64,000 nt of DNA from Elusimicrobiota bacterium (lineage in GTDB: Bacteria > CAYTYR01 > UBA6262), in NCBI GenBank assembly GCA_003153935.1, contig PMCA01000011.1, positions 67,912 to 131,911 on the forward strand, written 5' to 3'. The position numbers and the translations under genes are program-made. Under the pieces are notes generated by a model. The model searched no databases. It had not been told where the DNA came from and saw only the letters and a program-made list of their open reading frames with translations. The first letter of the stretch is position 1; every line of letters begins with the position of its first letter. Below are positions 1 through 18,490 of the stretch, piece after piece.

Positions 1-594
1 GATCTTATAATTGGCGCCTATCTGAAAGAGCCGGGCCTTATTTATTACCAGTTCCCCGACCAGGTTCATCAAGTTATCCAGGTGTTCGATGTTAATACGC
101 ACGCTGGTCTGGGTTTTTTTCTTGTCGGCTTCGCTACTTACTGTTTTTTTTTCGCCTGCGGTGGAATCGGTCGGTGTTTCTTTCGCCGGAGCCGGACCTT
201 CGGCTGGCTTAGTCTCCAGGACCATCTTCAACTTGACGGTCATGGCCGTAATATCCACTTTGCGGTCTTCCCCGCTGGCCACTTCCTGTAACAATGGCTC
301 CAGCACATCCAGGGCTTTGAACAGCACTTCGATAATTTCCGGAGTGACCTTAGCTTCCTGTTTGCGCAGGACATCCAGCAGGTCTTCCATCTGGTGCGCC
401 AGGGTGGTGATCTTCTGGTAACCCATGGTCGCCGCCATACCTTTCATGGTATGGGCCAAACGAAAGATCTCGTTCAATAGCTCCAGGTTTTCCGGGGCTT
501 TTTCCAATTCCAACAGGGATTTGTTGAGATTCTGGAGATATTCCGTCGCTTCACTGATGAACATGTCCTTATAGCGCGACATATCTTCGGTCAT
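1..594 (-). CDS. cheA: Chemotaxis histidine kinase CheA, N-terminal part (gene continues beyond window start)
   Basis: Reverse-strand translation from the ATG at 594 gives MTEDMSRYKDMFISEATEYL...HTMKGMAATMGY (Hpt/P1 phospho-His motif) followed by SVRINIEHLDNLMNLVGELVINKARL (start of dimerisation/kinase region). Not in the ORF track because it is truncated at the window edge. Confidence 0.85.
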   Translation of the reverse strand, partial: MTEDMSRYKDMFISEATEYLQNLNKSLLELEKAPENLELLNEIFRLAHTMKGMAATMGYQKITTLAHQMEDLLDVLRKQEAKVTPEIIEVLFKALDVLEPLLQEVASGEDRKVDITAMTVKLKMVLETKPAEGPAPAKETPTDSTAGEKKTVSSEADKKKTQTSVRINIEHLDNLMNLVGELVINKARLFQIGANYKI

Positions 595-603
595 GGCAAC
601 CCC

Positions 604-1659
604 TTAGATCAGTTTTAATATCTCTTCGACAATCTTATTGGCTGGCACTACTTTATCAACTACTCCCTCTTCGATAGCCGCCTTGGCCATGCCAAAGACG
701 ATACTGGAAGATTCATCCTGGGCGATAGTCTTGCCGCCCACCGCCTTGATCGCTTTGAGTCCTTTAACGCCGTCACGGCCCATGCCGCTCAACAGGACGC
801 CGATGGCTTTCGCTCCGTATACTTGCGCCGCGGCTTCCATCATCGCGTCAATGCAAGGTTTTACCCGGTGAATGGAGGGTTCACTTGATAAAGTAATTGC
901 TCCGCCTTTCTTTATTCTTTCCACCTTTATAGTATAGCTTTCGGGCGCTAAAAAGGCTGTAGAGGAGGGGACAATATCCCCGATCTTGGCCTCCCGTACG
1001 CCGATCTTGGAAATATTGCTTAAACGTTCGGTGAAAGATTTGATAAAAAATGATGGCATATGTTGCGCCACCAAAACTCCGCTGGGCAGGTCATAAGGGA
1101 ATAAGGGCATGATCTCCATCAGCACTTTCGGCCCTCCGGCTGAAGATCCGATGCAAATTACCCGGTCAGACGGTTCCGCCACTCCGGTCACTCTCTCCCG
1201 GATACGGGTGGTGGGATATAAAACTTTCAATTTATTGCGGTCGATGCGGGCAGCGATCTTGATCTTGTCGATTAATTCGTTCTTGACTTTATCAATCTCC
1301 ATTTTGATACTGCCCAGATCAGCGTCTTGGGGCTTGGTAACAAAATCTACGGCACCGAATTCCAGCGCTTTTAGCGTGGCCTCCGCTCCATCCCTGGTAA
1401 CCTTGCTGAACATAACTACCGGCGTCGGATTGGTCTTCATCAACATCTCCAGGGCAGTCAAACCATCCATTTCCGGCATAATAATGTCCAGGGTGATAAC
1501 GTCGGGATTAAGATTTTTGACCTTCTCTACCGTTTCCCGGCCGTCACTGGCGGTACCTACCACGGTTATCTGCGGGTCAGAATTAAGCATATCCGTGATG
1601 ATTTTGCGCATAAAGTTGCTATCATCAACAACCAGTACCTTTATCTTTTCCACGCTCAA
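604..1659 (-). CDS. cheB: Protein-glutamate methylesterase CheB (REC + CheB methylesterase domains)
   Basis: N-terminal receiver KVLVVDDSNFMRK...LDIIMPEMDG. C-terminal methylesterase with GSSAGGP and the conserved catalytic region. 351 aa. Confidence 0.9.
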   Translation of the reverse strand: MSVEKIKVLVVDDSNFMRKIITDMLNSDPQITVVGTASDGRETVEKVKNLNPDVITLDIIMPEMDGLTALEMLMKTNPTPVVMFSKVTRDGAEATLKALEFGAVDFVTKPQDADLGSIKMEIDKVKNELIDKIKIAARIDRNKLKVLYPTTRIRERVTGVAEPSDRVICIGSSAGGPKVLMEIMPLFPYDLPSGVLVAQHMPSFFIKSFTERLSNISKIGVREAKIGDIVPSSTAFLAPESYTIKVERIKKGGAITLSSEPSIHRVKPCIDAMMEAAAQVYGAKAIGVLLSGMGRDGVKGLKAIKAVGGKTIAQDESSSIVFGMAKAAIEEGVVDKVVPANKIVEEILKLI

Positions 1660-1676
1660 ACCCCTTTCCTCAATGG

Positions 1677-2042
1677 TTACGTCTTCAAAACTTTTCTAAC
1701 CGCTTCAATCACCTTTTCCGGCTGGAACGGTTTGATAATGAAATTTTTGGCACCGGCTTGCATGGCTTCCACGATCAGAGCTTCCTGCCCCATGGCACTG
1801 ACCATCAGGATCTGGGCGCTGCCATTTACTTTCATGATCTCCTTAACCGCTTTAATCCCGTTCTCTCCCGGCATGATGATATCCATGGTTACCAGATCGG
1901 GTTTTAATTCGGTATACTTGGCCACAGCTTGTTCGGCGTTTTCCGCTTCCCCGGCAATTTCATAACCCTCTTTAGAAAGAATGTTCTTGAGGGTCATACG
2001 CATGAAAGCTGAGTCATCCACAATCATAATCCTTGTTCCCAT
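1677..2042 (-). CDS. cheY: Single-domain response regulator, CheY-like
   Basis: 121 aa, IMIVDDSAFMR...DLVTMDIIMPGENG...KNFIIKPF. Sits between cheR and cheB. Confidence 0.8.
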   Translation of the reverse strand: MGTRIMIVDDSAFMRMTLKNILSKEGYEIAGEAENAEQAVAKYTELKPDLVTMDIIMPGENGIKAVKEIMKVNGSAQILMVSAMGQEALIVEAMQAGAKNFIIKPFQPEKVIEAVRKVLKT

Positions 2043-2088
2043 AATTTATCGCCTCCCCCTTTTGTTGAGTTCGTTGAAAACCTGAACT

Positions 2089-2904
2089 CTAGCTTTTTTG
2101 GAAAATCCGTTCGGTTACATTGAACCTTTCGAATAAACCCTCGTTGACGCTCATTAAGCTTTCTACTTTCCCCAGGACCAGGAATCCTTTAGGATTCAGG
2201 CTTTTGTAAAAATTCACCAGCATCCTGGTCTGCATTTCCTTGGTCAGGTAGATCATCACGTTGCGGCAAAAAACAATATCCAGGTTCTTCAGCGGTTCCT
2301 CGCGGATAAAATCATGTTTGATGAATTTAACCATCGAGCGGATCTCATCTTTGACCCGGAATTTGCCGGTTTCCGGTATAAAATACTTGCTTACTACATC
2401 CGGCACCGCGTTCTCCAGGGCGGCCGGCCCGTAAATCCCGGCCCGGGCCTTATTCAAACTGAAATCATCTATGTCCGTCCCAAAAATAGAAATAGTATAC
2501 TTGTCCAGGTTGCTTTTGAGCCGGTCCATCAGGCAAATAGAGATGGAATACGGTTCTTCGCCGCTGGAACAACCGCAGCTCCAAACCCTGATGATATTAT
2601 TCTGGCTCTTTTTCTTTTCTGCCAGTAGCGAAGGTATCACCACGCTGTCAAAAACCTTATACACGGATATGTCCCGGAAGAACTGGGTAACATTGATAGT
2701 AATATCGTCAAAGAGCTTAATATACTCTTCCGGGTGGTTATCCAGAACGTTGGCGTATTCATTGAAGGTGGACACCTTCCAGGCCCGCATGCGCACGCCA
2801 AAGCGTCTTTTCAGGTAACTTTCACGGTACTGCCGGCAATCAAATCCGCGATCCTTAAAAATTTTCCTGACTAAATATTCAAAATCCGGTTCGCTATATG
2901 TCAT
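2089..2904 (-). CDS. cheR: Chemotaxis protein methyltransferase CheR
   Basis: 271 aa with CheR N-terminal helical domain and SAM-MTase region (IRVWSCGCSSGEEPYSI, VFCRNVMIYL). Confidence 0.9.
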   Translation of the reverse strand: MTYSEPDFEYLVRKIFKDRGFDCRQYRESYLKRRFGVRMRAWKVSTFNEYANVLDNHPEEYIKLFDDITINVTQFFRDISVYKVFDSVVIPSLLAEKKKSQNNIIRVWSCGCSSGEEPYSISICLMDRLKSNLDKYTISIFGTDIDDFSLNKARAGIYGPAALENAVPDVVSKYFIPETGKFRVKDEIRSMVKFIKHDFIREEPLKNLDIVFCRNVMIYLTKEMQTRMLVNFYKSLNPKGFLVLGKVESLMSVNEGLFERFNVTERIFQKS

Positions 2905-2905
2905 T

Positions 2906-3445
2906 TTATTCCGCTGCCGCCTGGTTTTCTTTTTTGGCGCCAGTGGCTCCCGGACCTTCCTCCGCAGCCATCTTATTCAATTTTTCCAGGGTGCTCTTCT
3001 CCAGGTCAGTCAGGACCTTATCCAGGTCCAGCAATATGATGAGGCGCCGATCCATTTTACCCACGCCCTTGAGGTATTCGGCGTCAATATCGGTAATGGT
3101 CGGCGGTAAAGGGTCGATCGCATCATTGGCAAGGCGCAGGACTTCACTCACGCTGTCTACCACCAACCCGACGGTTTGGCTGGAAACCTCGGCCACTACC
3201 ACCCGGGTATTGGCGTCATCCTCCTTTTTGGTCAGACCGAAACGGTCCCGCAGGTCGATTATGGGGATAATCTTGCCGCGCAGATTGATCACGCCCTCTA
3301 CAAAAGTGGGCATGCCCGGTATACGGGTGATACCTACCGGGCGAATAATTTCCTGAACTTGCGCGATGCCGATGCCATATTCTTCGTTGGACAGGCCAAA
3401 GACCACTATTTGGGAGGTGCCTTCTTCTTTCTTCTCCTGGATCAT
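2906..3445 (-). CDS. cheW: Chemotaxis coupling protein CheW
   Basis: 179 aa CheW-like domain (VVFGLSNEEYGIGIAQVQEIIRPVGITRIPGMPTFVEGVINLRGKIIPIIDLRDRFGL). Confidence 0.85.
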   Translation of the reverse strand: MIQEKKEEGTSQIVVFGLSNEEYGIGIAQVQEIIRPVGITRIPGMPTFVEGVINLRGKIIPIIDLRDRFGLTKKEDDANTRVVVAEVSSQTVGLVVDSVSEVLRLANDAIDPLPPTITDIDAEYLKGVGKMDRRLIILLDLDKVLTDLEKSTLEKLNKMAAEEGPGATGAKKENQAAAE

Positions 3446-3514
3446 GTTGGTCTCCTTAAAATTATCCTTGGACCTCGACCATATTTTTGGTAAAGTTAGA
3501 CTCTATTCAATTGA

Positions 3515-3543
3515 TTTTATTATATATCCGGGCACTTTGTCAA
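3515..3543 (-). promoter_or_regulatory. Candidate sigma70-like promoter upstream of cheW (minus-strand TTGACA at 3543..3538 with an AT-rich TATATAAT-like -10)
   Basis: Minus-strand sequence is TTGACAaagtgcccggaTATATAATaaaa in the 120-bp gap between pilQ and cheW. Spacer length is ambiguous. Confidence 0.2.
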
Positions 3544-3565: not shown

Positions 3566-5119
3566 TTATTTCCTCTCCTGCTCTATTTTCAACATATTTT
3601 CGCGGGAATATTCCTCGATCCGGCTGGAAGTCAGGATATGAGGCGTGACAAAGATCATCAGGTCGACTTTCTGAACTGTATCGCTGTTTTGCCGGAACAG
3701 GGCCCCCAGCAAGGGAATGCTGCCCAGGATCGGGATCTTATAAGAAACCTTGGATTTGCGGGTGGTGGTCAAACCTCCGATTACCACGGTTTTGCCGTCG
3801 CGCACGTTAACCTTGGTAGAAGCTTTCCGGAGAGATCTTATCGGGATCCCGATGTTTTCCCCGTTCTGGAAGGATACTTCCGGTTCCAGCTCCAGGTTAA
3901 CTACGTTACCCTCTTTAATATGCGGCGTAACGCCCAGGATTATACCGACATCCAGAAATTCTATGGCGTACTGAGGATTACCCTTGGCGTCATAGCCGGA
4001 AAATTGGTTATACGGGAACTTATCGGTTATTTCTATCCTGGCCTTTTCATTGTTGACCACCGTAATGGTGGGATTGGACAGGAGTTCGGCCTTATTGGTA
4101 GTTACCAGCGCGTTGATCATGGCCCGGAATTTATCTGTTACTTCGCCGTAAACCAGGCTAGTGCCCAGGCCCTGCGTAACATAACCCAGATTCTGGGTAT
4201 CCGTAGCTATGGGTGGGGTGTTGTACACGGTATTAAAAGTGAAAGTCTGGCCATGGCTGCCAGGCTGGTAGATCCACTGGGCGCCGATCTGGCTCAAAAC
4301 ATTGGAATTCACTTCAACTAATTCCGCGCTGATGATAACCTGGGGAGTTTCCCGGTCCAATTTCAGCACTAGGTCCGCGATCTTATCCAGAATATTATTC
4401 TGATCCTTAACTACCAAGGAGTTCAGGCTTTCATCCACATCCGCGGCTCCGTCCGAAGACAGGGTCTTGGCGATCTCATCCTTTACTTTGGCCGCGGAGG
4501 CGTATTGCAAGGTGAAAACACGGGTTTGAACTTCGGTGCCGGACCCGGCGGGCCGTTCTGAACCGGCCGATTTCACGTCCAGCGCGTCAATGACATCAAT
4601 GATACGGTTAAAATTCCTATAGGTATCGGAAACTATCAGAACTTTGGTCTCGCGGTCCACGTCGATATTACCTTGCGCGCTTAACACATTGACCACCGTG
4701 GTCTTAGCTTGCAGCGGATCCATGTTCTTGATGTTGAAGATCCGGGTATCGATCTGGGTGGGCAGGAGAGCCGAGATCTCGATAATATTTTTATCCGGGA
4801 AAACCTTATAGGCGAAACCGCTGTTGGTGAGAATGGAGGTCAGCACGTCTTCGATCGGTACATCCTTAAAAAAGAAATTAACCTTGCGGCCCCGAACCTT
4901 GTCCACCAGATAAAAATTTATGTTGTTCTGCTGGGACAGGAGTCGGAGAGCATCGTCCAGGTCGACGTTGCGGAAATCGATGGAGATTTTCTTGGCTCGG
5001 ACCAGATCCCAAAAATTCGGATTGTCCGCGGCCCAAAGCCGGGCCGTCGGCAGCGGCCCCGGTACTATCCAGGAAACCGCCAGGAACAGCGCTATTGCCA
5101 AGATTATTTTTTTATACAT
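3566..5119 (-). CDS. pilQ: Type IV pilus secretin PilQ
   Basis: 517 aa. Signal peptide, N-terminal AMIN/N0-like region, C-terminal secretin domain (VISAELVEVNSN, GGLTTTRKSKVSYKIPILGSIPLLGALFR, LMIFVTPHIL). Confidence 0.85.
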   Translation of the reverse strand: MYKKIILAIALFLAVSWIVPGPLPTARLWAADNPNFWDLVRAKKISIDFRNVDLDDALRLLSQQNNINFYLVDKVRGRKVNFFFKDVPIEDVLTSILTNSGFAYKVFPDKNIIEISALLPTQIDTRIFNIKNMDPLQAKTTVVNVLSAQGNIDVDRETKVLIVSDTYRNFNRIIDVIDALDVKSAGSERPAGSGTEVQTRVFTLQYASAAKVKDEIAKTLSSDGAADVDESLNSLVVKDQNNILDKIADLVLKLDRETPQVIISAELVEVNSNVLSQIGAQWIYQPGSHGQTFTFNTVYNTPPIATDTQNLGYVTQGLGTSLVYGEVTDKFRAMINALVTTNKAELLSNPTITVVNNEKARIEITDKFPYNQFSGYDAKGNPQYAIEFLDVGIILGVTPHIKEGNVVNLELEPEVSFQNGENIGIPIRSLRKASTKVNVRDGKTVVIGGLTTTRKSKVSYKIPILGSIPLLGALFRQNSDTVQKVDLMIFVTPHILTSSRIEEYSRENMLKIEQERK

Positions 5120-5123
5120 TGCC

Positions 5124-5678
5124 TCAACCTCCCCTGACCCTCAAAGTTATAGTTTTCGCATCGTTTTTTAGCAATACCCGGTTCTTTAAAATACTTATGA
5201 CCAGGTAAGCTTTTTTACCTTTGATATAAAGATATTCGCCTTCGTGCACTACTTGACCGTTAATGACCGCCAAGGCTTTATTCTTGTACCAGGCTATGCC
5301 TGTAAGCTCCAGCAGGTCTTCCTCTTTAGCGGGAGTTACCGCTACAGGACCGGGAGTTACCGTATTATTCTCCGGGCTCGAATCGCCTGCACCGACAAAG
5401 GGATCCCGGCCCCAAGCTTGGCCGCTGCTGTCACCAGCCGCTTCCGGTGTTGATCCCAGTACGGCGAATTCCTTCTCCGTCGTATTGGCCCTGGTCGATG
5501 GTACGGACTCAACCGGTACCGCAGTGTCCGTCACTTCTCCCGTCGCCGCGGGCGCGCTTTCCGGTGCCGGAGTTGGTTTTAATACCATCTGTTTGTAAAC
5601 AAATAAAATAGCCAGTCCCAGCGCGACCAGGATAATGATTTGCTTTTTGTCGGGTGACTTCTTTCCTTCCGGAGCCAT
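5124..5678 (-). CDS. PilP-like pilus assembly protein (membrane anchor, Pro/Ala-rich linker, C-terminal beta domain)
   Basis: 184 aa. N-terminal TM helix, a low-complexity linker rich in Pro, Ala, Thr and Glu, and a C-terminal KALAVINGQVVHEGEYL...LLKNDAKTITLRV like PilP/GspC beta-sandwich. Sits between pilO and pilQ. Confidence 0.5.
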   Translation of the reverse strand: MAPEGKKSPDKKQIIILVALGLAILFVYKQMVLKPTPAPESAPAATGEVTDTAVPVESVPSTRANTTEKEFAVLGSTPEAAGDSSGQAWGRDPFVGAGDSSPENNTVTPGPVAVTPAKEEDLLELTGIAWYKNKALAVINGQVVHEGEYLYIKGKKAYLVISILKNRVLLKNDAKTITLRVRGG

Positions 5679-5680: not shown

Positions 5681-6244
5681 TTATCCTTCACTGCTAATGA
5701 TATACGTATATACCTGCAGGGTAACATCGATATAAGGCAGCTTTTCCGTATTGCGGGTGATCTTCAGGCTTTCCACCTTGATCAACCGTGGCAGTTTTTT
5801 CAAGTTAGCTAAATATTCGCCCAAATTACGGTAACGGCAGCGCATGGTGATCTCGATCGGCAGCCGGTTATAGGACAAACCTCCCTGCTGTTCCCCTGTT
5901 TCCAGGGGTTTAGTATTGATCGAAACATAAGTGATATTAGCCTGGTTGGCCACAGTGGCCAGGGCTTGCAGCAAGCTGGGGATCTGCTTGGAATCCGGCA
6001 GTTTATTCCTAAAGTACTGCCATTGCTGTTCCATCTTACCGGCTTCTTCGCGGATCTTATTCAGGTCCCGCAGAAATTCGTAGGCTCGTTGTATCTCATC
6101 GTTTATTTGTTGTATCTCCGCTTTTTGCTGCGCGATCTTATCACGGGCCGGCTGGATAAAGAAATACTGGCTGAAGCCGGCGATACCGGCGAAGATCAGG
6201 AAGTATTTCAATAAAGCCTTTTCTTTCGCGCCTATCTTTTTCAT
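5681..6244 (-). CDS. pilO: Type IV pilus assembly protein PilO
   Basis: 187 aa. N-terminal TM, coiled coil, C-terminal ferredoxin-like region. Sits between pilMN and pilP-like. Confidence 0.7.
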   Translation of the reverse strand: MKKIGAKEKALLKYFLIFAGIAGFSQYFFIQPARDKIAQQKAEIQQINDEIQRAYEFLRDLNKIREEAGKMEQQWQYFRNKLPDSKQIPSLLQALATVANQANITYVSINTKPLETGEQQGGLSYNRLPIEITMRCRYRNLGEYLANLKKLPRLIKVESLKITRNTEKLPYIDVTLQVYTYIISSEG

Positions 6245-9945: not shown

Positions 9946-9967
9946 AATCCCTTAAATAGCAGGTAGG

Positions 9968-10004
9968 GGTGGCTGTTTGAGCTTAATTAGGCCCAAACAG
10001 CCAC
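9968..10004 (-). terminator. Strong stem-loop (13-bp stem) just downstream of the major pilin gene. Putative partial terminator/attenuator.
   Basis: GGTGGCTGTTTG-agcttaattagg-CCCAAACAGCCACC. No clean U-tract follows on the minus strand, so a leaky terminator is more likely than a strong one. Confidence 0.4.
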
Positions 10005-10045
10005 CTGTATACCTAAATTAAATTAATTTAATTTGTATCTGCCTA

Positions 10046-11879: not shown

Positions 11880-13583
11880 TTAATCTTCCTGGGTGGCCCT
11901 GATCACCTCGTCCACCGTGGTAACGCCTTGCAGAACTTTCAATATACCGTCATCGCGCATGGTTTTCATCCCGGCCAGCACCGCTTCCTTGCGCACTACG
12001 TCCATAGAGGTTTTCTGGACGATCAGGCTGCGGATCTTATCATTAGGCAACATAAGCTCGAAAATACAAATACGTCCCTTGTAGCCGGTACCCATGCAGG
12101 TCTTACAGCCTTTGCCATGGTATACCTTCACCCCTTTTTTTGCCGGGTCAATACCGGCCTGCTGCAATAGTCCGTCCGGTGGTTTGAATTCTTCCTTGCA
12201 ATTGGGGCAGATCTTGCGTACCAGGCGCTGGCCGATAACCGCCAGCACCGATGAGGAAACCAGGAACGGCTCCACACCCATATCTACCAACCGGGTAACC
12301 GCGCCCGGCGCGTTATTGGTATGCAGGGTGCTGAAGACCAAATGACCGGTAAGAGCCGCCTGGATGGCGATCTCCGCCGTCTCCAGGTCTCTGATTTCTC
12401 CGACCATCACCACGTCCGGGTCCTGACGCAGAATAGCGCGCAAGCCGGAGGAAAAGGTCAGCCCGGCCTTAACGTTGACCTGCGCCTGCCGGATAAGTTT
12501 TAACCTATATTCCACCGGGTCCTCAACGGTTATGATATTTTTATCGATGGTATTAATAACATTCAAGGAGCTGTAAAGGGTGGTGGTTTTACCGCTGCCG
12601 GTAGGCCCCGTCACCAAGACGATACCGTAAGATTTTTTAATCGTTTTATTAAATTCTTCCAGGACATCCGGCGCGAACCCAAGTTGTTCCAGCCCCAGCA
12701 GGGCTTTGGATACGTCCAGGATCCTCATGACGATATTTTCGCCGTAAATAGTGGGCAAGGTAGAGACACGCATGTCCACCTGCCGGTTCTCCACCTTGAT
12801 GCGGAACCGGCCGTCCTGCGGCACGCGTTTTTCGGCGATATCCATTTCGCTCATGATCTTGACGCGTGACAAAATAGCGGCCTGGATGTTCTTAGGCGGC
12901 GCCGGCACTTCCTGCATCACCCCGTCTATGCGATAACGGATGCGGAGCATGTTCTCTTCCGGCTCGATATGTATGTCGCTGGCTCCATCCCGGATAGCAT
13001 TCATGATTAGCAGGTTCACCAGTTTTATGACCGGCGCTTCTTCCGCCAGGTCCTGTAATTTTTTAGCCTCGATGTCATGTTCGCCAGTCCCGAGCAGTTC
13101 GCCTTCGTCCTCTTCGATCTTCTTGATCACTTCGTCCATGGTGCCGGTGACGCCGTAATACTGGTCGATCGCCCTTTTAATATCGCTGTCCGTAGCCAGC
13201 GCCGGTTCCACCGTGCAACCCGCTTTCAGGCTGACTTCGTCGATAGCAAAAACGTTCAGAGGATCCGCCATGGCTACAGTTAAAGTATCGCCGATCTTGA
13301 ACAACGGCACCAGCTGGTATTTCCTGGCAACGTATTCTGGTACCAGGTTGACCGTTTCCGGGTCCACCAGGTAATCCTTCAGGTCGACATGCGGTATGCC
13401 GAGCTGCTCACCGAGAAAACTGACCAGGGCCTCTTCACTGATCAGGTTCAGCCGCACTAACACCTTGCCCAGCCTCTCGCCGGATTCATGCTGTACTTTC
13501 AAGGCCTCATCGATCTGCTGTTTGCTTACCAGCCCAGCCTCTACCAGTATTTCCCCTAATTTTTTCTTCTCGCCTTTTACCAC
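11880..13583 (-). CDS. pilB: Type IV pilus assembly ATPase PilB (GspE family)
   Basis: 567 aa. GspE_N/MshEN N-domain, Walker A GPTGSGKTTTLYS, Asp/His boxes, tetracysteine motif CPNCK...CKTCMGTGYKGR. Confidence 0.9.
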   Translation of the reverse strand: MVKGEKKKLGEILVEAGLVSKQQIDEALKVQHESGERLGKVLVRLNLISEEALVSFLGEQLGIPHVDLKDYLVDPETVNLVPEYVARKYQLVPLFKIGDTLTVAMADPLNVFAIDEVSLKAGCTVEPALATDSDIKRAIDQYYGVTGTMDEVIKKIEEDEGELLGTGEHDIEAKKLQDLAEEAPVIKLVNLLIMNAIRDGASDIHIEPEENMLRIRYRIDGVMQEVPAPPKNIQAAILSRVKIMSEMDIAEKRVPQDGRFRIKVENRQVDMRVSTLPTIYGENIVMRILDVSKALLGLEQLGFAPDVLEEFNKTIKKSYGIVLVTGPTGSGKTTTLYSSLNVINTIDKNIITVEDPVEYRLKLIRQAQVNVKAGLTFSSGLRAILRQDPDVVMVGEIRDLETAEIAIQAALTGHLVFSTLHTNNAPGAVTRLVDMGVEPFLVSSSVLAVIGQRLVRKICPNCKEEFKPPDGLLQQAGIDPAKKGVKVYHGKGCKTCMGTGYKGRICIFELMLPNDKIRSLIVQKTSMDVVRKEAVLAGMKTMRDDGILKVLQGVTTVDEVIRATQED

Positions 13584-13602: not shown

Positions 13603-13986
13603 TTACTTCTTCATGCCTTGTTCAATGGTTTGGTTAATCTTCCTGATAAGTTCTTCCGGTTCGAATGGCTTGGTCATATAAACGTCGGCTCCGGTCTTAA
13701 AACCAGTCTCCTTATCCACTTCCTGCATGCGCGCGGTCAGCATGATGATCGGAATATGTTTATATTTGTCGTCAAATTTTAATATCCGGCAAACTTTGAA
13801 ACCGTCCATTTTGGGCAACATTATATCCAGGACTATCAGGTCCGGGTTTTCCGTCCGGGCCATTTCCAAGCCCTGGAAGCCATCCATAGCCAAGACAATG
13901 GTAAACCCAGCACTCTCCAAATTCATTTTCACTAATTCCCTGATCAAAGCGTCATCTTCAACTACCAGGATCTTTTTACCGGCCAT
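13603..13986 (-). CDS. Stand-alone response regulator receiver protein
   Basis: 127 aa REC domain (KILVVEDDALIREL...LIVLDIMLPKMDG...MLTAR...YMTKPF). Confidence 0.8.
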   Translation of the reverse strand: MAGKKILVVEDDALIRELVKMNLESAGFTIVLAMDGFQGLEMARTENPDLIVLDIMLPKMDGFKVCRILKFDDKYKHIPIIMLTARMQEVDKETGFKTGADVYMTKPFEPEELIRKINQTIEQGMKK

Positions 13987-14106: not shown

Positions 14107-14472
14107 TTATTCAAGCAGTTTCGTAATTTTTTCCGCCAGGCTTAACGGATCAAAAGGCTTGGTTATGTATTCATCAGCACCGGCAGCCAGTCCCTTTTCG
14201 ATCTCGTCTTTCTGCGCTTTGGCCGAGATCATGATGACCTTGGTGCCCGCGGTCTCCGGATGGCTTTTTATCTGCCGGCAAACCTCGTAGCCGTTCAGAT
14301 CCGGCATCATCACGTCCAGCAGGACCAGGTCGGCTTTTACCTCCAGCGCCTTAGCCAGCCCTTCCCGCCCATTATGAGCGCGAATGATCGTAAACTTGTC
14401 TGGTTCGAAACTATATTCGAACAGGTCCAAGATCAAAGGATCATCATCTACGATCAATATTTTTTTTGTCAT
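14107..14472 (-). CDS. Stand-alone response regulator receiver protein
   Basis: 121 aa REC domain (KILIVDDDPLILDL...LVLLDVMMPDLNG...ISAK...YITKPF). Confidence 0.8.
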   Translation of the reverse strand: MTKKILIVDDDPLILDLFEYSFEPDKFTIIRAHNGREGLAKALEVKADLVLLDVMMPDLNGYEVCRQIKSHPETAGTKVIMISAKAQKDEIEKGLAAGADEYITKPFDPLSLAEKITKLLE

Positions 14473-14476: not shown

Positions 14477-17020
14477 TCAACCCATGATCCTGTCGATTTC
14501 CGCTACCAGCTCCTTGACTTTGAACGGCTTGGTTATATAGCGTAAAGCCCCCAATTCCAGGCCTTTCCTTTTATCTTCATCCATCTTGCGGGCGGAAATA
14601 ATTATTACCGGTATCCGCTGGATAAATAGGTCCGGATCGGCCTTCAGCTGCTTCAGTACTTCATACCCGTCCAGCTTGGGCATCATCACATCCAGCAGGA
14701 TCAGAGCCGGTTTCAATTCTTTCGCTTTAGCCAGAGCCTCTTCGCCGTCTATGGCCACTTTGGTGTTATATCCCTCTTCCGACAGGGTGATCTTGATAAG
14801 TTCAACTACGTTAGGCTCATCGTCAGCGATCAGGATGGTGCCGCGCTTCTTGCCGCCGCGCACACCCAGGGTCTCGCTGACCTTGGATAACAATTGCTTC
14901 TTATCTACCGGTTTATTCAGATAATCAACCACGCCCATCTGGCGGGTCTGGCTCTCTTTATCCTGTAAGATAGAAACTATCATTACGGGAATATCTTTGG
15001 TTTGGGTGTCTTCTTTGAGCGCTTTCAATACCTGGATGCCATCCATATCAGGCAATTTTATATCCAGGAGTATTAAATCTGGTTTGGCTTCCCGCGCTTG
15101 CTGTAATGCCTGGTACCCGGTCAGGGCCCAGATAACGTGATAGCCTTCATCCTCCAGGTATATCTTATGCAGGTTGAGGATGTCCTGTTCGTCGTCCACC
15201 AGCAGAATGGTTTTTTGCCCGGGTAGTGCGTGCCGGCCGCGGGCCTCACCCAACAGCTCGCCTTCACTGGAAACAGGCCGGAAAGCCGGCAAAGTAAAGC
15301 AGAAACGGCTGCCTTTGTTGGGCCCGTCACTTTCGGCCCAGACCTTGCCTTCATGCATCTCTACGATCCTCTTGACAATGGCCAATCCCAGGCCGGCCCC
15401 GCCGGTTTGCCGGGTCGATGATGAATCCACCTGGTAGAATTTTTCGAATATTTTTTCCAGTTCCTCCGGGGGAATGCCGATACCGCTGTCACTGATGCGC
15501 GCTTCCACCTGGTTCTTGTCTTTTTCAAAAATTTCAATGATGACTTTGCCGTTTTCCGGGGTGAACTTAAAAGCGTTAGTGAGGAAGTTGGCCAGTACCT
15601 GCAGCAACTTATCTTTATCGGCGTAGACAAAGGGCAGGTCATCCTGGATGATGGCGGTCAAACTTATCTTTTTCTGGTCGAAATGGGAACGCATGCGCTC
15701 GATCACGGTTTCCGTCAGCGCTTTCAGGCTGATCGAAGCTTTGTTCATCCGGACCTGGCCGGCTTCGATGCGGGAGAGGTTCAGCAGGTCGGTGATCAAA
15801 GTGGTCAAATGGTCGCTTTGCTCTTCCACGATCTTGAGGAATCTTTTCTGGCTATCGCTGATCTCGCCGGCACGGCCGGCTAGCATCAGGGCGGTATAGC
15901 CCTTTATCGAAGTTAAAGGGGAGCGCAACTCATGGGAAACCATGGAGAGGAAATCGCTCTTGGCCTGGTTTAATTCGCGTAACTTCACCACTAACTGCTG
16001 TTCCTGGGAATAAAGCCGGGCGTTTTCCAGCGCTACTGCGGCCTGGTCGCCAAAAGCCCGTACCAGGTCGATCTGGTGCTGCGTGAATTGTCCGGGATTC
16101 TTGGTGTAAAGGCAAAAAGCGCCTTTAGCCATGTTCTTTACTATCAGGGGGACGCAAAGCAGGGAAGCCATTTTTTCTTGCTGGACGATGGGATTGGACT
16201 GGTACGCCTCATCCCGGTTTAACTCCGGGATGATGACCACGCGTTTTTCCTGTATGGTCTTCCCGGTAATACTGTTATCTACCCGGACAGACTGGGGGTG
16301 AAGGTTGGTATCAACCCCGTAGCTGGCGCTGAGGATCAACTCCTGGCCGGTTTCGTTGAGCAGCCGCAAAGTACAGGCATCCGCCCTGGCAAATTCGGTT
16401 ATGGACCTGACGATAAAATCCAGCACTTCTTTCAAGTCCAGGCTGGCGCCCATCAAGGTGCATAATTTGATCAGTGACTGCAATTCTTTTTGCTGTAACC
16501 AATTCTCTTTTTCCACTTGTTTGAGAATGGTTATATCGGTGAAAAGGTAGATAGAGCCGGCTATTTTGTTCTGGCGGTAGAGAGGCAGGACCTTAACCAT
16601 GGTTTCCATGATGTGACCGCTCTTAGACCGGATGGTGGTTTGGATGAGGCGTTGCTCAGCGGCTTTGCGGTAATTGATCTCTGTTTTAAGCTTATCGCGT
16701 TCGGATTCAACTATCAATTCGGACAGGTTTTTGCCCCGCAACTCGGACGCGGTAAATTCCAGGAATCTTTCGCCGCTGTAATTGACAAAGGTGATGCTCT
16801 CAGTCAGATCGCAGGCAACAACGGCGTCCACTCCTTCGGTCAGAACGCTGGTGGCGATCTCTCTTTCCCCGTCCATGTCGCCGAAATCAAGATCAGGGTC
16901 CTCAGTGCGCAGGGCCAGCTTTCTTATGCCCCTGTTCTGCCAAAAAATACCGGCCAATAACACTGTGATGATACCGATGAAAACGAGCAAGAAGACATTG
17001 AAGACTTGATTGATGGTCAT
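14477..17020 (-). CDS. Hybrid sensor histidine kinase (TM-PAS-GAF-HisKA-HATPase_c-REC-REC)
   Basis: 847 aa. N-terminal TM, PAS-like and GAF regions, H-box SHELRSPLTSIKGY, ATP-binding G-boxes (DSGIGIP, GGAGLGLAIVKR), two C-terminal receivers (ILLVDDEQDI...LLDIKLPDMDG and ILIADDEPNV...LLDVMMPKLDG). Confidence 0.85.
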   Translation of the reverse strand: MTINQVFNVFLLVFIGIITVLLAGIFWQNRGIRKLALRTEDPDLDFGDMDGEREIATSVLTEGVDAVVACDLTESITFVNYSGERFLEFTASELRGKNLSELIVESERDKLKTEINYRKAAEQRLIQTTIRSKSGHIMETMVKVLPLYRQNKIAGSIYLFTDITILKQVEKENWLQQKELQSLIKLCTLMGASLDLKEVLDFIVRSITEFARADACTLRLLNETGQELILSASYGVDTNLHPQSVRVDNSITGKTIQEKRVVIIPELNRDEAYQSNPIVQQEKMASLLCVPLIVKNMAKGAFCLYTKNPGQFTQHQIDLVRAFGDQAAVALENARLYSQEQQLVVKLRELNQAKSDFLSMVSHELRSPLTSIKGYTALMLAGRAGEISDSQKRFLKIVEEQSDHLTTLITDLLNLSRIEAGQVRMNKASISLKALTETVIERMRSHFDQKKISLTAIIQDDLPFVYADKDKLLQVLANFLTNAFKFTPENGKVIIEIFEKDKNQVEARISDSGIGIPPEELEKIFEKFYQVDSSSTRQTGGAGLGLAIVKRIVEMHEGKVWAESDGPNKGSRFCFTLPAFRPVSSEGELLGEARGRHALPGQKTILLVDDEQDILNLHKIYLEDEGYHVIWALTGYQALQQAREAKPDLILLDIKLPDMDGIQVLKALKEDTQTKDIPVMIVSILQDKESQTRQMGVVDYLNKPVDKKQLLSKVSETLGVRGGKKRGTILIADDEPNVVELIKITLSEEGYNTKVAIDGEEALAKAKELKPALILLDVMMPKLDGYEVLKQLKADPDLFIQRIPVIIISARKMDEDKRKGLELGALRYITKPFKVKELVAEIDRIMG

Positions 17021-17056
17021 CTGTAATTATTACCTGCTTTTGAGAAAATTTTCGTT

Positions 17057-18490
17057 CTAGAAAATTTCCGAATACAGAGTCACCTGATTGCGTCCGTGAG
17101 CCTTGCCCCAGTTCAGCGCTTCCTCACTCATCTTCAAAAGTTCTTCCTTGTCATCCGTATCGCCGGGGAAAGTACCCAACCCCATGGTTATGGTAATGTT
17201 GATCACCCCGTTGGGAACAACAAACCCGTGATTTTCCACCAACTGCCTGATACGCCCGGCCACGGCCCGGGAGCCGTCACGCGGCGTGTTTGGCAGGATC
17301 ATGGCTATGCCGTCACCCTCAAAACGGGCGGCGAAATCGACTTCTCGGGTATTATGCATGCAGATCTTGGCCAGTTCACACAGGATTGTGTCGCCCACCG
17401 GATGGCCGTAGGTATCATTGTATACTTTAAAATGGTCCACGTCGAGGATCAGCAGTGACATTTCCTGCTTAAAGCGCTTGGCCCGTGCCAGTTCTTCGCC
17501 TAGTCTCTGGTTAAAGTATTTCTGCACGTACAGTTTGGTCAGGCTGTCAACGATGGTGGCCTCTTCCATTCTCTTGGCCAGGCGGATACTCTGGATCGCT
17601 GTGGCCATCTGATTGCCGAACAGCAATAAATACTTTTCGTCTTCAGCGGACAGCAATTGTTTGGAAAAAACGTTATCGATAGTCAGGACGCCAAGGTATT
17701 CGTCTTTGGTCTTAATCGGCAGGTTAATTATGGGTTTGTGGCGGATATCGTCTACCTGTTTGGAAAATAATGTATCGACTACTTCATTTATGCCGGGGCG
17801 GAGAGGATACTTGTACTCCTCTATCGAACGGACAGTGCCGCCGGCATCCACGGCCATTTTGCCGTTAAGCATATTCTTATCCTGGTCGATCAGGAACAGC
17901 TTGGCCCGATCCACTCCCAGGTGCTTGACGATATTCTTCAGGATTATTTCCAGCGCTTCGCCCAGGTCCATGGTGCGTACGATCGAATTATTGATCCGGG
18001 ACAAAACTAATAGTTCATCGGTCAGGTTCTGGTTCTTCTCTTGCAGGGAGGCGCCTTCGATGCCAATCTCGAATTTACCCACGAATTCCTGCGCCCGTTT
18101 CGTTTGTTCGTCGCTAAAAGGCGTTTTGGATACCATCATATCCGCCCGCAGGATAGCAATCACGCCGCTGTCATTCCTGATGGGCAGATAAAGGGTCAAC
18201 CCGTTATCGGCGAGCACGCATTCTTTTTTCCCCAAAGCCAATTCGCTGAGGCCAAGATCGCCGCTCTCGGTGGAGATCTTTTCTTCCAGGTTAAGCAGGC
18301 CCTTGCCGTCAATGATAAATCGGCTTTTAAAAACTTGCTCGTTCTTATCCAGGAGAAAGACCGTGGCCCGGTCGCAGTTTACATAGTTCAGGAGGGCTTG
18401 TAATCCTTTCTTCAATACCGCGTCTAATCCATTTTTGATATCTTTGAAGGCTTCTACCAGTTCTTCCCAGACCTTTTTCTGCTCGGCCAT
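17057..18490 (-). CDS. Tandem GAF-domain protein with degenerate GGDEF domain (A-site EGDGI instead of GGEEF; I-site RxxD intact)
   Basis: 477 aa. Two GAF-like regions, then a GGDEF fold with DSLT, DVDHFKVYNDTYGH and GD motifs present. The signature reads R-EVD-FAARF-EGDGI-AMIL. Confidence 0.8.
   Translation of the reverse strand: MAEQKKVWEELVEAFKDIKNGLDAVLKKGLQALLNYVNCDRATVFLLDKNEQVFKSRFIIDGKGLLNLEEKISTESGDLGLSELALGKKECVLADNGLTLYLPIRNDSGVIAILRADMMVSKTPFSDEQTKRAQEFVGKFEIGIEGASLQEKNQNLTDELLVLSRINNSIVRTMDLGEALEIILKNIVKHLGVDRAKLFLIDQDKNMLNGKMAVDAGGTVRSIEEYKYPLRPGINEVVDTLFSKQVDDIRHKPIINLPIKTKDEYLGVLTIDNVFSKQLLSAEDEKYLLLFGNQMATAIQSIRLAKRMEEATIVDSLTKLYVQKYFNQRLGEELARAKRFKQEMSLLILDVDHFKVYNDTYGHPVGDTILCELAKICMHNTREVDFAARFEGDGIAMILPNTPRDGSRAVAGRIRQLVENHGFVVPNGVINITITMGLGTFPGDTDDKEELLKMSEEALNWGKAHGRNQVTLYSEIF

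What the first reader, a model, noticed from the sequence alone, without database searches (positions are those of the whole stretch)
1..18490. Single co-directional supercluster joining a Che-type chemosensory module, a complete type IVa pilus set, a multi-receiver phosphorelay and a c-di-GMP protein
Seventeen consecutive minus-strand genes run GAF-GGDEF(degenerate), hybrid kinase with two receivers, two receivers, pilB, pilC, pilA, three minor pilins, pilMN, pilO, pilP-like, pilQ, cheW, cheR, cheY, cheB, cheA. Intergenic gaps are short or overlapping. In most studied bacteria the T4P genes are scattered over several loci and the Pil-Chp chemosensory system is separate. No MCP and no pilT/pilU retraction ATPase lie within the cluster in this window. 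The layout suggests one regulon in which chemosensory and c-di-GMP inputs converge on pilus assembly.
Basis: partly seen in the sequence, partly recalled or inferred. Interest (0 to 1): 0.6.

Follow-up and report, generated by a model that had tools for sequence, protein, structure and literature searches.

The report
Pilus cluster fused to chemotaxis operon
An uncultured, probably Elusimicrobiota-related bacterium keeps the genes for a type IV pilus, a two-component sensor set, c-di-GMP-binding proteins and a Bacillus/Thermotoga-style chemotaxis operon (with an unusual FtsA-like ATPase) in one conserved block, which suggests, but does not prove, that chemotaxis signalling steers the pilus rather than a flagellum.

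Summary
The gene calls are right. Domain searches confirm 17 of the 19 minus-strand genes. The PilP-like gene and the 321-aa minor pilin rest on weaker evidence.

Four points need correcting:
- The block runs past window position 1. After cheA come an FtsA-like 712-aa gene, cheC, cheC, cheD and a receiver, then pcrA/gatC. There is no MCP and no pilT.
- The shared strand is not informative. The window holds oriC, and 44 of 47 genes left of it are on the minus strand.
- The pilus set is not complete. PilT and PilD are missing, and more minor pilins lie at 26.4-30.2 kb.
- No Hpt domain supports a true phosphorelay.

The single-regulon idea is partly supported. Four relatives keep the whole order. 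More distant lineages join pilus genes to a che operon in other arrangements. PilB carries a tandem MshEN c-di-GMP motif. The GGDEF protein is degenerate (EGDGI) but keeps its RxxD I-site, so it is probably a receptor. However, a conserved sigma-70-like promoter lies between pilQ and cheW, so this is not one operon.

The che genes resemble the F1 (CheC/CheD) type, not Pil-Chp. A roughly 715-aa FtsA-like protein is a recurrent member of such che operons. I rate this a new variant of a known kind.

The parts
17057..18490 (-). GAF + degenerate GGDEF protein (477 aa). Motif EGDGI replaces GGDEF, and the I-site REVD is retained. Probably a c-di-GMP receptor, not a cyclase.
   Evidence: Pfam GGDEF 1.6e-37 and GAF. 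Motif read directly. The same EGDG[IV] and REVD occur in L007-L009.
18532..18560 (-). Sigma-70-like promoter match (TTGACA-17-TAAATT with an extended TG) upstream of the GGDEF gene.
   Evidence: Consensus match only; conservation could not be tested because the relatives' loci are cut inside this gene.
14477..17020 (-). Membrane-anchored hybrid histidine kinase: TM-PAS-GAF-HisKA-HATPase-REC-REC (847 aa). No Hpt domain.
   Evidence: Pfam. Single N-terminal hydrophobic segment.
14107..14472 (-). Stand-alone receiver RR1 (121 aa).
   Evidence: Response_reg 6.1e-29.
13603..13986 (-). Stand-alone receiver RR2 (127 aa), directly upstream of pilB. This REC-pilB pairing recurs in Omnitrophota-type loci.
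   Evidence: Response_reg 1.8e-29. In 16 of 28 distant loci a REC (41-56% identity) lies directly upstream of pilB. Its closest paralogue is RR3, at the far end of the che module (51% identity).
11880..13583 (-). PilB-type extension ATPase (567 aa) with an N-terminal tandem MshEN c-di-GMP-binding motif (K8-Q31, 5-residue spacer, R37-Q60).
   Evidence: TIGR02538 678.4 bits (cutoff 675.65). GspE also passes, at 647.8 against 630.25. NF053729 65.5 bits against 38. Motif definition from PMC5013675. Conserved in relatives.
10653..11861 (-). PilC/GspF platform protein (402 aa).
   Evidence: T2SSF x2, 2.4e-63. Close to both PilC and GspF models, below their cutoffs.
10046..10594 (-). Major pilin (182-aa precursor; leader MMRAFKNKEG, then mature FTLIELLIV...).
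   Evidence: N_methyl 3.4e-9. Sequence. Gene call of 182 aa on the source scaffold.
9960..10045 (-). Strong stem-loop immediately 3' of the pilin gene (15-bp stem, no U-tract). A likely mRNA-stabilising element or partial terminator.
   Evidence: MFE -39.8 kcal/mol, z = -4.9. Present in L007-L009 with compensatory stem changes.
9565..9945 (-). Minor pilin, 126 aa (GspI/PilV-sized; G|FTVVE).
   Evidence: N_methyl. Weak PilV hit. Sequence.
8994..9530 (-). Minor pilin, 178 aa (GspJ/PilW-sized; G|VTIVE).
   Evidence: N_methyl 6.6e-7. Sequence.
8029..8994 (-). Large minor pilin, 321 aa. GspK/PilX-like (G|FALIF, no Glu5), carrying an F5/8-type-C / CBM32-like lectin domain. A candidate tip adhesin.
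   Evidence: F5_F8_type_C 1.7e-8. GspK 0.0011 over the N-terminus. Weak PDB hits are CBM32 modules 4a41 and 2j1a.
6241..8004 (-). PilM-PilN fusion (587 aa): actin-like cytoplasmic domain, one TM helix, periplasmic PilN domain.
   Evidence: PilM_2 1.5e-46 and PilN 2.5e-7. TIGR01175 182 bits, above the 133 cutoff. TM helix at 384-414. Fused homologues in Omnitrophota.
5681..6244 (-). PilO (187 aa).
   Evidence: PilO 2.7e-22; T2SSM_b 2.6e-7.
5124..5678 (-). PilP/GspC-HR-like protein (184 aa): N-terminal membrane anchor, Pro/Ala/Thr-rich linker, C-terminal beta domain with a WGRDPF motif.
   Evidence: No Pfam or NCBIfam hit. The two best PDB hits of the family profile are GspC HR domains 2lnv and 3oss, at E 0.09 and 0.23. 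It sits between pilO and pilQ in all relatives.
3566..5119 (-). Secretin (517 aa; STN/N0, two Secretin_N domains, secretin domain).
   Evidence: Secretin 7.9e-46. Equally similar to GspD and PilQ models, below both cutoffs.
3514..3543 (-). Conserved sigma-70-like promoter (TTGACA-18-TAAAAT) in the pilQ-cheW gap. The che module has its own promoter.
   Evidence: Best match in the region, 11 of 12. Conserved in L006-L009 and recognisably in L065, while the gap length varies from 124 to 688 nt.
2906..3445 (-). CheW (179 aa).
   Evidence: CheW 1.9e-43.
2089..2904 (-). CheR methyltransferase (271 aa).
   Evidence: CheR 6.5e-54 and CheR_N.
1677..2042 (-). CheY (121 aa). It is 94-97% identical in relatives.
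   Evidence: Response_reg 1.2e-30. Best curated model is CheY_Halo. Conservation.
604..1659 (-). CheB methylesterase (351 aa).
   Evidence: CheB_methylest 3.8e-55 plus REC.
1..594 (-). First 198 codons of CheA (full length 542 aa: P1/Hpt, no P2, P3, P4, P5). The cluster continues off-window with the FtsA-like 712-aa gene, cheC, cheC, cheD and REC (RR3), then pcrA.
   Evidence: Hpt and H-kinase_dim. Full gene and downstream genes on L002.

Best explanation
**What it is.** This is a conserved block of about 23 kb and 25 genes, 19 of them in the window. It belongs to an uncultured diderm bacterium whose GyrB is closest to Elusimicrobiota MAGs. It encodes a type IVa-like pilus machine:
- PilB, PilC and a major pilin.
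- A GspI/J/K-like minor-pilin trio, whose largest member carries a lectin domain.
- Fused PilMN, PilO, a PilP-like protein and a secretin.

**Three signalling inputs sit around it.**
1. c-di-GMP. PilB carries an N-terminal MshEN tandem motif that should bind c-di-GMP and gate pilus extension. The GAF protein with a degenerate GGDEF keeps its I-site, so it acts as a c-di-GMP receptor or adaptor, not a cyclase.
2. A membrane-anchored PAS-GAF hybrid kinase with two stand-alone receivers. RR2 is the conserved upstream neighbour of pilB and probably acts on the motor directly as a single-domain regulator.
3. An F1-like chemosensory pathway: CheW, CheR, CheY, CheB, P2-less CheA, two CheC, CheD, an FtsA-like ATPase and a receiver RR3 that is paralogous to RR2. 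It is transcribed from its own promoter. Its receptors are encoded elsewhere in this genome, though in-cluster in some relatives. Its output is the pilus.

**Shown versus inferred.**
- Shown: gene content, motifs, synteny conservation and promoter conservation.
- Inferred: c-di-GMP binding, who phosphorylates whom, and that the che output is the pilus.
For: - **Domain calls.**
- **Block boundaries.** The block is bounded by housekeeping genes: yabE-like/tatD/metG upstream and pcrA/gatC downstream.
- **Synteny.** The whole order is kept in L006-L009. L065, at 39% PilMN identity, also keeps the pilQ-che junction.
- **Independent arrangements.** L074 reads PilC, an MshEN+PilZ protein, two pilins, then CheC-CheA-CheC-FtsA-like-CheR-CheY-CheD-CheB-CheC-CheW. 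L084 reads secretin, pilin, then the same che operon. L057 reads T4P genes followed by CheW-CheY-CheY-CheA.
- **Frequency.** Six of 11 che-embedded FtsA-like loci with enough flank have pilin or T4P genes directly upstream.
- **MshEN motif.** It is in the same register as V. cholerae MshE and above the NF053729 cutoff.
- **Degenerate GGDEF.** EGDGI with REVD is conserved in relatives.
- **Receivers.** RR2 and RR3 are the closest REC pair, at 51% identity. The REC-pilB pairing occurs in 16 of 28 distant loci.
- **Lectin minor pilin.** A lectin-bearing GspK-like minor pilin argues for an external adhesive fibre.
- **Literature.** Most free-living Elusimicrobiota carry Che, MCP and T4P genes but no flagellar genes (10.1101/2022.07.08.499144).
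Against: - No experiment or transcript data exist.
- No PilT or PilD lies in the window or in about 140 related loci, so a motile extend-retract cycle is unproven.
- No MCP lies in this genome's cluster.
- The che module has its own conserved promoter, so co-regulation with the pilus genes is not shown.
- Much of the synteny evidence comes from relatives close enough that adjacency could be inherited rather than selected. L065 also shares the pcrA-gatC flank.
- Many Omnitrophota carry the same che operon away from pilus genes: L062, L064, L066, L073, L078, L085 and L086.
- PilB motif 2 has Asn where the turn Gly is expected.
- Whether this organism lacks flagella could not be checked.
Confidence: 0.6

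Rival explanations
1. Neighbours without coupling. The pilus cluster and the che operon are two independent units that sit side by side on the leading strand near oriC. The che pathway would control something else, such as a flagellum encoded elsewhere, gliding, or a non-motility output.
For: - The che module has its own conserved promoter.
- Strand bias explains the co-directionality.
- The che proteins look like the flagellar/archaellar F1 type: CheA_Halo, CheY_Halo, CheC_Thtogales and a Thermotoga-type CheD.
- The same che operon lies away from pilus genes in many Omnitrophota loci.
- L065 shares flanking housekeeping genes, so adjacency there may simply be inherited.
Against: - Pilus-che adjacency recurs in at least three different gene orders.
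- RR3, at the end of the che module, is the closest paralogue of the pilB-adjacent RR2.
- Flagella are reported absent from most free-living Elusimicrobiota that carry Che and T4P genes.
- No flagellar gene appears in the window or in any fetched locus.
Confidence: 0.22
2. The machine is a type II secretion-like system, or a non-retractile pseudopilus exporter, rather than a surface pilus. The signalling genes would then regulate secretion.
For: - The gene order ATPase, platform, major pilin, three minor pilins (126, 178 and 321 aa, the last lacking Glu5), fused PilM-N (GspL-like topology) and PilO (GspM-like) mirrors gspE-F-G-(H)-I-J-K-L-M.
- The ATPase passes the GspE cutoff, at 647.8 against 630.25. 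The secretin scores slightly better on GspD than on PilQ. PilO hits GspM weakly.
- The PilP-like profile hits GspC HR domains.
- There is no PilT.
- A CBM-containing exported protein is encoded just upstream, at 19420-20274.
Against: - The cytoplasmic domain matches PilM strongly (PilM_2 1.5e-46; TIGR01175 above its cutoff) and does not match GspL. It also keeps nucleotide-binding residues.
- PilO scores far better on the PilO model than on GspM.
- The ATPase also passes the type IVa PilB equivalog.
- The mature pilin, about 172 aa, is larger than typical GspG (my own knowledge).
- A lectin domain on the tip minor pilin makes sense only for an exposed fibre (inference).
- Omnitrophota homologues are treated as T4aP, and V. 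archaeovorus expresses them (PMC10066038).
Confidence: 0.1
3. The che-like pathway and the c-di-GMP proteins control pilus or matrix gene expression, or biofilm commitment, in the manner of the Wsp or Dif pathways. They would not give moment-to-moment control of the motor.
For: - A degenerate GGDEF receptor heads the cluster.
- An HD-GYP phosphodiesterase lies nearby, at 32196-33428.
- PilB with MshEN is known to act as a signalling protein for EPS in Myxococcus (PMC5544727, listed).
- There is no retraction ATPase.
Against: - No DNA-binding response regulator and no REC-GGDEF output lies in the block.
- All four stand-alone receivers (RR1, RR2, CheY and RR3) are single-domain.
- The full adaptation set (CheR, CheB, CheC, CheD) suggests temporal sensing.
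Confidence: 0.08

Closest known systems
Pil-Chp (P. aeruginosa) and cyanobacterial Tax/Pix chemosensory systems that steer type IV pili
   Same: A CheA/CheW/CheY/CheR/CheB-type pathway is associated with a type IVa pilus. Single-domain receivers are the likely outputs onto the extension motor.
   Different: - CheA here has one Hpt and no C-terminal receiver, where ChpA/PilL have several Hpt domains plus a REC.
- CheC x2 and CheD are present.
- The best curated matches are F1-type (haloarchaeal and Thermotoga) models.
- The che genes are physically joined to the pilus assembly genes.
- An FtsA-like ATPase is part of the operon.
Archaeal F1-type Che system coupled to the archaellum through CheF (PMC2666748)
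   Same: An F1-like CheA/W/Y/R/B/C/D set is linked to a type IV filament machine instead of a bacterial flagellum. A lineage-specific extra protein is encoded inside the che operon.
   Different: - The extra protein here is an FtsA/PilM-fold ATPase with beta-grasp-like repeats, not CheF.
- The filament is a secretin-dependent bacterial pilus.
- No interaction data exist.
Omnitrophota type IVa pilus clusters (Seymour et al. 2023, PMC10066038)
   Same: The core order is the same: HK/REC, pilB, pilC, pilin, minor pilins, fused pilMN, then pilO and pilP. PilB identity is 50-60% and PilMN identity about 30%.
   Different: - In Omnitrophota the che operon is usually elsewhere. That paper reports a type-2/3 F-ATPase next to the pilus genes instead.
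- The words chemotaxis and flagell- do not occur in that paper.
MshE/PilB c-di-GMP-gated pilus ATPases (V. cholerae MshE; PMC5013675)
   Same: There are two 24-residue motifs with a 5-residue spacer, in the same register as MshE (K8-Q31 and R37-Q60 here; R9-Q32 and R38-Q61 in MshE).
   Different: Motif 1 has Arg->Lys and motif 2 has the turn Gly->Asn. Binding has not been measured.
Degenerate-GGDEF c-di-GMP receptors such as PelD (GAF + degenerate GGDEF) and PopA
   Same: A GAF domain is followed by a GGDEF domain with a broken active site and an intact RxxD I-site.
   Different: - This protein has no transmembrane segments.
- No polysaccharide synthase genes are in the fetched context.
- The comparison with PelD and PopA rests on my own knowledge, not on a test here.
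Type II secretion system operon gspC-O
   Same: The gene order E-F-G-I-J-K-L-M matches. The fused PilMN has the topology of GspL. There is a GspK-like minor pilin without Glu5 and no retraction ATPase.
   Different: PilM- and PilO-type sequences take the place of GspL and GspM. The tip pilin bears a lectin domain. The secretin and platform score below the T2SS equivalog cutoffs.

Membership tests
Type IVa pilus machinery | PilB-type extension ATPase | tested here: met
   TIGR02538 678.4 bits against a cutoff of 675.65. The GspE model also passes.
Type IVa pilus machinery | PilC platform protein and prepilins with the G|F/V-x-x-x-E N-terminus | tested here: met
   T2SSF x2. N_methyl hits, with leader and Glu5 read directly in three pilins.
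Type IVa pilus machinery | PilM-PilN-PilO alignment subcomplex | tested here: met
   PilM_2 1.5e-46, PilN 2.5e-7 and PilO 2.7e-22. PilM and PilN are fused in one 587-aa protein.
Type IVa pilus machinery | PilP lipoprotein linking PilNO to the secretin | tested here: inconclusive
   No Pfam or NCBIfam hit. The best PDB hits of the family profile are GspC HR domains at E 0.09 and 0.23. Position and architecture fit.
Type IVa pilus machinery | PilQ secretin | tested here: met
   Secretin, Secretin_N x2 and STN. PilQ subfamily score 221.9, below its 284 cutoff; GspD 227, below 351. It is a secretin, but the subtype is unresolved.
Type IVa pilus machinery | PilT/PilU retraction ATPase | tested here: not met
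   None in the 64-kb window, in the 9.4 kb beyond position 1, or in about 140 related loci. The rest of the genome could not be searched.
Type IVa pilus machinery | PilD prepilin peptidase | tested here: not met
   No Peptidase_A24 hit among the window genes scanned. It may be encoded elsewhere.
Type II secretion system | GspL, GspM and GspC inner-membrane components and a GspD secretin above family cutoffs | tested here: not met
   No GspL hit. GspM 34.9, below 60. GspD 227, below 351. GspF 370, below 424. Only GspE passes.
Tfp-class (Pil-Chp) chemosensory system | ChpA/PilL-type CheA with multiple Hpt domains and a C-terminal receiver | tested here: not met
   CheA is 542 aa with one Hpt, then dimerisation, HATPase and CheW domains, and no REC.
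Tfp-class (Pil-Chp) chemosensory system | Dedicated PilJ-type MCP in the operon | tested here: not met
   cheW and cheR are 1 nt apart and no MCP lies in the block. Relatives L009 and L065 do have an in-cluster MCP.
F1-like (Bacillus/Thermotoga/archaeal) chemotaxis class | CheC and CheD present alongside CheA, W, Y, R and B | tested here: met
   CheC x2 (about 163 bits each on CheC_Thtogales) and CheD (163 bits on PRK13490), all below equivalog cutoffs. The best solved relative of CheA is T. maritima CheA, at 1e-112.
F1-like (Bacillus/Thermotoga/archaeal) chemotaxis class | Assignment by class-specific CheA/CheW/CheB/CheR profiles (MiST; Wuichet & Zhulin classification) | not testable with these tools
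   Those profiles are not available here. CheA lacks the P2 domain that Omnitrophota homologues keep.
Diguanylate cyclase (active GGDEF) | GG[DE]EF active-site motif | tested here: not met
   The motif is EGDGI in the window and EGDGV in L007-L009.
Degenerate-GGDEF c-di-GMP receptor | Intact RxxD I-site five residues upstream of the degenerate motif | tested here: met
   REVD-FAARF-EGDGI, conserved in relatives. Binding itself has not been tested.
MshEN c-di-GMP-binding domain | Two 24-residue RLGxx(LVI)(LVI)xxG(LVI)(LVI)xxxxLxxxLxxQ motifs with a 5-residue spacer | tested here: met
   K8-Q31 and R37-Q60, with R->K in motif 1 and G->N in motif 2. NF053729 65.5 bits, above 38.
His-Asp-His-Asp phosphorelay | An Hpt domain or protein between the receivers | tested here: not met
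   No Hpt in the kinase, RR1 or RR2. The only Hpt in the block is CheA P1.

The most novel reading that the evidence does not exclude
The roughly 715-aa FtsA-fold ATPase with C-terminal beta-grasp-like repeats may be a previously unrecognised output or adaptor component of an F1-like chemosensory pathway. It is always encoded 0-1 gene after cheA and next to a cheC in Elusimicrobiota-related and Omnitrophota che operons. Together with CheC-family CheY~P-binding proteins and the RR2/RR3 receivers, it would couple CheA signalling to the PilM/PilB base of a type IV pilus. That would be a bacterial counterpart of archaeal CheF, in lineages that navigate with pili rather than flagella.
Probability: 0.25. 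Interest if true: 0.75.

Novelty: new variant of a known kind. Interest (0 to 1): 0.55.

Why it matters
Chemosensory control of type IV pili is understood only for the Pil-Chp, Tax and Frz systems. All of these use their own specialised signalling classes and are encoded apart from the pilus genes.

Here a Bacillus/Thermotoga/archaeal-style che set, with CheC and CheD, is welded to a pilus assembly cluster. The lineage is uncultured, and its closest named relatives mostly lack flagella. The block also holds c-di-GMP receptors and a conserved receiver next to the motor ATPase.

If the coupling is real, it gives three things:
- A compact, testable module for how F-class chemotaxis can be re-targeted to a pilus.
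- A candidate coupling protein, the FtsA-like ATPase.
- A behavioural handle (directed pilus-based attachment or motility) for Elusimicrobiota and Omnitrophota, groups suspected of epibiotic or predatory lifestyles.

If it is not real, the finding is simply a tidy pilus cluster next to a che operon.

Full report
**Source and setting.** The window matches an ENA metagenome scaffold, WOOD18-1 scaffold_127, of about 132 kb. It holds the replication origin region. On the plus strand, dnaA is at 46045, followed by dnaN, recF, gyrB and gyrA. On the minus strand lie rnpA, yidC (with a periplasmic domain), jag, mnmE, gidB, parA and parB. GC skew changes sign near 45 kb. From the ORF lists and domain searches I count 44 of 47 protein genes between 1 and 45 kb on the minus strand. 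A run of 17-19 co-directional genes is therefore expected from leading-strand bias and is not evidence of an operon. GyrB is 84-88% identical to a small set of unnamed MAGs. The next hits, at 61-67%, are almost all labelled Elusimicrobiota or Endomicrobia. I therefore treat the organism as an Elusimicrobiota-affiliated uncultured lineage. This is a similarity argument, not a phylogeny.

**Checking the observation.** There are two weak spots.
- The 184-aa 'PilP-like' gene (5124-5678) has no family hit. A profile built from 22 positional homologues finds GspC HR domains as its two best PDB matches, but only at E 0.09 and 0.23. The family shares a WGRDPF motif and a C-terminal beta domain.
- The 321-aa protein (8029-8994) has a prepilin-like N-terminus without Glu5 and a faint GspK hit. 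It also carries an F5/8-type-C (CBM32-like) domain.

Its motif is EGDGI, preceded at the canonical distance by an intact RxxD I-site (REVD). Both features are conserved in three relatives.

**What lies beyond position 1.** cheA begins at 594 and runs off the window. The scaffold shows the rest:
- CheA is 542 aa (Hpt, dimerisation, HATPase, CheW-like domains; no P2).
- Next comes a 712-aa FtsA-like protein, two CheC paralogues, CheD and a stand-alone receiver (RR3).
- Then come pcrA, gatC and gatA.

There is no MCP and no pilT. The real block is therefore about 23 kb and 25 genes, bracketed by housekeeping genes on both sides (yabE-like, tatD and metG upstream).

**Pilus or secretion system?**
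- The ATPase passes both the type IVa PilB and the GspE equivalog cutoffs. The secretin and platform sit between the two families.
- The gene order ATPase, platform, major pilin, three minor pilins (126, 178 and 321 aa), fused PilM-N and PilO mirrors gspE-F-G-I-J-K-L-M. The PilM-N fusion has the topology of GspL.
- Against a T2SS, the cytoplasmic domain matches PilM strongly (TIGR01175 above its cutoff) and keeps the nucleotide-binding residues. PilO matches PilO far better than GspM.
- The largest minor pilin carries a lectin module, which makes sense only on an exposed fibre (inference).
- Homologous clusters in Omnitrophota are treated as T4aP and are reported as expressed in V. archaeovorus (PMC10066038).

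I call it a T4aP-like machine with T2SS-like organisation. I keep T2SS-like secretion as a minor rival. The set is not complete:
- No PilT or PilD is present in 64 kb.
- Four further pilin-like genes, two of them PilX-like and about 470 aa long, lie at 26363-30226.

**Comparative evidence.** An alignment of fused PilMN homologues retrieved 57 genome loci. I scored their six-frame ORFs with the window proteins.
- Four relatives with about 70% PilMN identity keep the entire order from the GGDEF gene to cheC.
- In these relatives the Che proteins are more conserved (CheY 94-97%, CheB 87-91%) than the periplasmic and surface pilus parts (49-73%).
- About 50 Omnitrophota-type loci (about 30% PilMN identity) keep kinase/receiver, pilB, pilC, pilin, minor pilins, pilMN and then pilO/pilP.
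- A stand-alone receiver lies directly upstream of pilB in 16 of 28 testable loci. A kinase lies within 4 kb in 21 of 28.
- These loci carry no che genes, except L057.

The kinase/receiver-pilus association is therefore old and widespread. The che fusion is lineage-specific.

**The che module and the FtsA-like protein.** The 712-aa protein gives a confident AlphaFold model (pLDDT 84).
- Its N-terminal half superposes on FtsA (target TM-score 0.84) better than on PilM (0.66-0.74).
- The ATP-binding motifs are invariant across 41 homologues.
- The C-terminal 350 residues form about five small beta-rich repeats, with faint ThiS/TGS/ubiquitin-like hits.

Full-length homologues at 41-54% identity are common in Omnitrophota and related MAGs. 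In every context I examined at that identity level, the gene sits inside a che operon, 0-1 gene after cheA and next to a cheC. Nineteen of the 80 best metagenome loci are of this kind. Of the 11 with enough upstream flank, six have pilin or other pilus genes directly upstream.
- L074 reads PilC, an MshEN+PilZ protein, two unknown genes and two pilins, then CheC-CheA-CheC-FtsA-like-CheR-CheY-CheD-CheB-CheC-CheW.
- L084 reads secretin, three unknown genes and a pilin, then the same che operon.
- L065, a relative at 39% PilMN identity, keeps pilMN-pilO-pilP-pilQ-cheW-MCP-cheY-cheB-cheA-FtsA-like-cheC-REC-pcrA.
- The close relative L009 has a 497-aa MCP between cheW and cheR. The missing receptor in the window is therefore a local loss or relocation.

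Pilus, che and c-di-GMP-binding genes thus come together repeatedly in different orders. This is the strongest argument for a functional link. The caveats are real:
- Several Omnitrophota carry the same che operon away from pilus genes.
- More distant members of the FtsA-like family (33-42% identity) have unrelated, Firmicutes-type neighbours.

**Which che class?** CheA has one Hpt and no receiver. CheC and CheD are present. The best curated models are haloarchaeal CheA and CheY and Thermotoga CheC and CheD. The best solved relative is T. maritima CheA. This is not the Pil-Chp class. It resembles the F1 class, whose archaeal members control another type IV filament, the archaellum, through the adaptor CheF (PMC2666748). 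Formal class assignment needs profiles I do not have.

From direct reading of the sequences:
- CheC2 keeps one ExxN phosphatase site.
- CheC1 has both sites altered, so CheC1 may be a binding protein rather than an enzyme.

**c-di-GMP.** PilB has two 24-residue MshEN motifs with a 5-residue spacer, in the same register as V. cholerae MshE. They read K8-Q31 and R37-Q60, with one Arg->Lys and one turn Gly->Asn. The domain passes the NCBIfam MshE-related model and is conserved in relatives. The degenerate GGDEF with an intact I-site is best read as a receptor. A GAF-HD-GYP protein with intact HD and GYP motifs lies at 32196-33428. No active cyclase is in the window.

**Transcription units.**
- The best sigma-70-like match in 19.6 kb lies in the 120-nt pilQ-cheW gap. 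Its -35 and -10 elements are conserved in five relatives, although the gap varies from 124 to 688 nt. The che module therefore has its own promoter.
- A second good match precedes the GGDEF gene.
- A 15-bp hairpin with compensatory changes follows the pilin gene. This is a common way to raise pilin mRNA relative to downstream genes (my own knowledge).

The block is therefore several transcription units, not one operon. Whether they form one regulon is untested.

**Receivers.** RR2, next to pilB, and RR3, at the far end of the che module, are each other's closest paralogues (51% identity). CheY is only about 30% identical to either. This ties the two ends of the block together. It suggests that both the hybrid kinase and CheA may feed the same type of single-domain regulator acting on the motor (inference). 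No Hpt domain exists outside CheA, so a classical multi-step phosphorelay is not supported.

**Verdict.**
- A published genome survey already noted that most free-living Elusimicrobiota have Che, MCP and T4P genes but no flagella, and proposed stimulus-guided twitching (10.1101/2022.07.08.499144).
- Four things are new here: the physical fusion, the F1-like nature of the pathway, the conserved receiver-pilB pair, and the FtsA-like che-operon protein.
- I rate it a new variant of a known kind, of moderate interest. Confidence that the che pathway acts on the pilus is about 0.6.

Noticed in passing
L002:12702-14840 (source scaffold, just left of window position 1); homologues P0069-P0188: A 712-aa protein with an FtsA fold and about five beta-grasp-like C-terminal repeats sits between cheA and cheC. 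Homologues at 40% identity or more are embedded in che operons of Omnitrophota and related MAGs. More distant ones (33-42%) have housekeeping, Firmicutes-type neighbours such as DAHP synthase/chorismate mutase and BrxC. I found no description of it in the paper library.
   Followed up: yes
window 26363-30226 (-): A second pilin locus is separated from the main block by tmk-holB-PSP1-metG-tatD. It holds a 148-aa prepilin, two PilX-like proteins of about 470 aa (ALY[IV]AD.GIEKA motif, one with a long N-terminal extension) and a 164-aa prepilin.
   Followed up: partly
window 32196-33428 (-): A membrane-anchored GAF-HD-GYP protein with intact HD and GYP motifs. It is a likely c-di-GMP phosphodiesterase, 14 kb from the pilus block.
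   Followed up: partly
window 45000-56000: Chromosomal origin region. On the minus strand lie rnpA, yidC, jag, mnmE, gidB, parA and parB. On the plus strand lie dnaA, dnaN, recF, gyrB and gyrA. GC skew switches sign near 45 kb. This explains the strand bias of the finding.
   Followed up: yes
window 9960-10045 (-): A 15-bp hairpin directly after the major pilin gene (z = -4.9), without a U-tract. It is conserved in three relatives with compensatory stem changes.
   Followed up: partly
L009:15255-16748 and L065:5475-6896: Relatives carry an MCP (TM-HAMP-MCPsignal) inside the che module, between cheW and cheR in L009 and in place of cheR in L065. The window genome has none there.
   Followed up: yes
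L074:921-1919: A 333-aa protein combines an MshEN domain and a PilZ domain, two c-di-GMP-binding modules. It is encoded between pilC and pilin genes, directly upstream of a che operon that contains the FtsA-like gene.
   Followed up: partly
L007:14798-15486: In one relative the pilQ-cheW gap is expanded to 688 nt by inserted sequence, possibly a small mobile or repeat element. The promoter-like core is retained.
   Followed up: no
window 18632-20274 (-): Two genes lie directly upstream of the GGDEF gene. One encodes a 257-aa membrane-anchored coiled-coil protein. The other encodes a 284-aa protein with a Pro-rich linker and a CBM30/CBM11-like domain. Whether they belong to the block is unknown, because the relatives' loci end before this point.
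   Followed up: no
L011, L012, L020, L025, L028 and others: Several loci whose pilus clusters look like those of Omnitrophota come from MAGs labelled Planctomycetia or Candidatus Scalindua. Close relatives of the window are variously labelled Clostridia, Elusimicrobia or 'bacterium'. The public taxonomic labels for these lineages are inconsistent.
   Followed up: no
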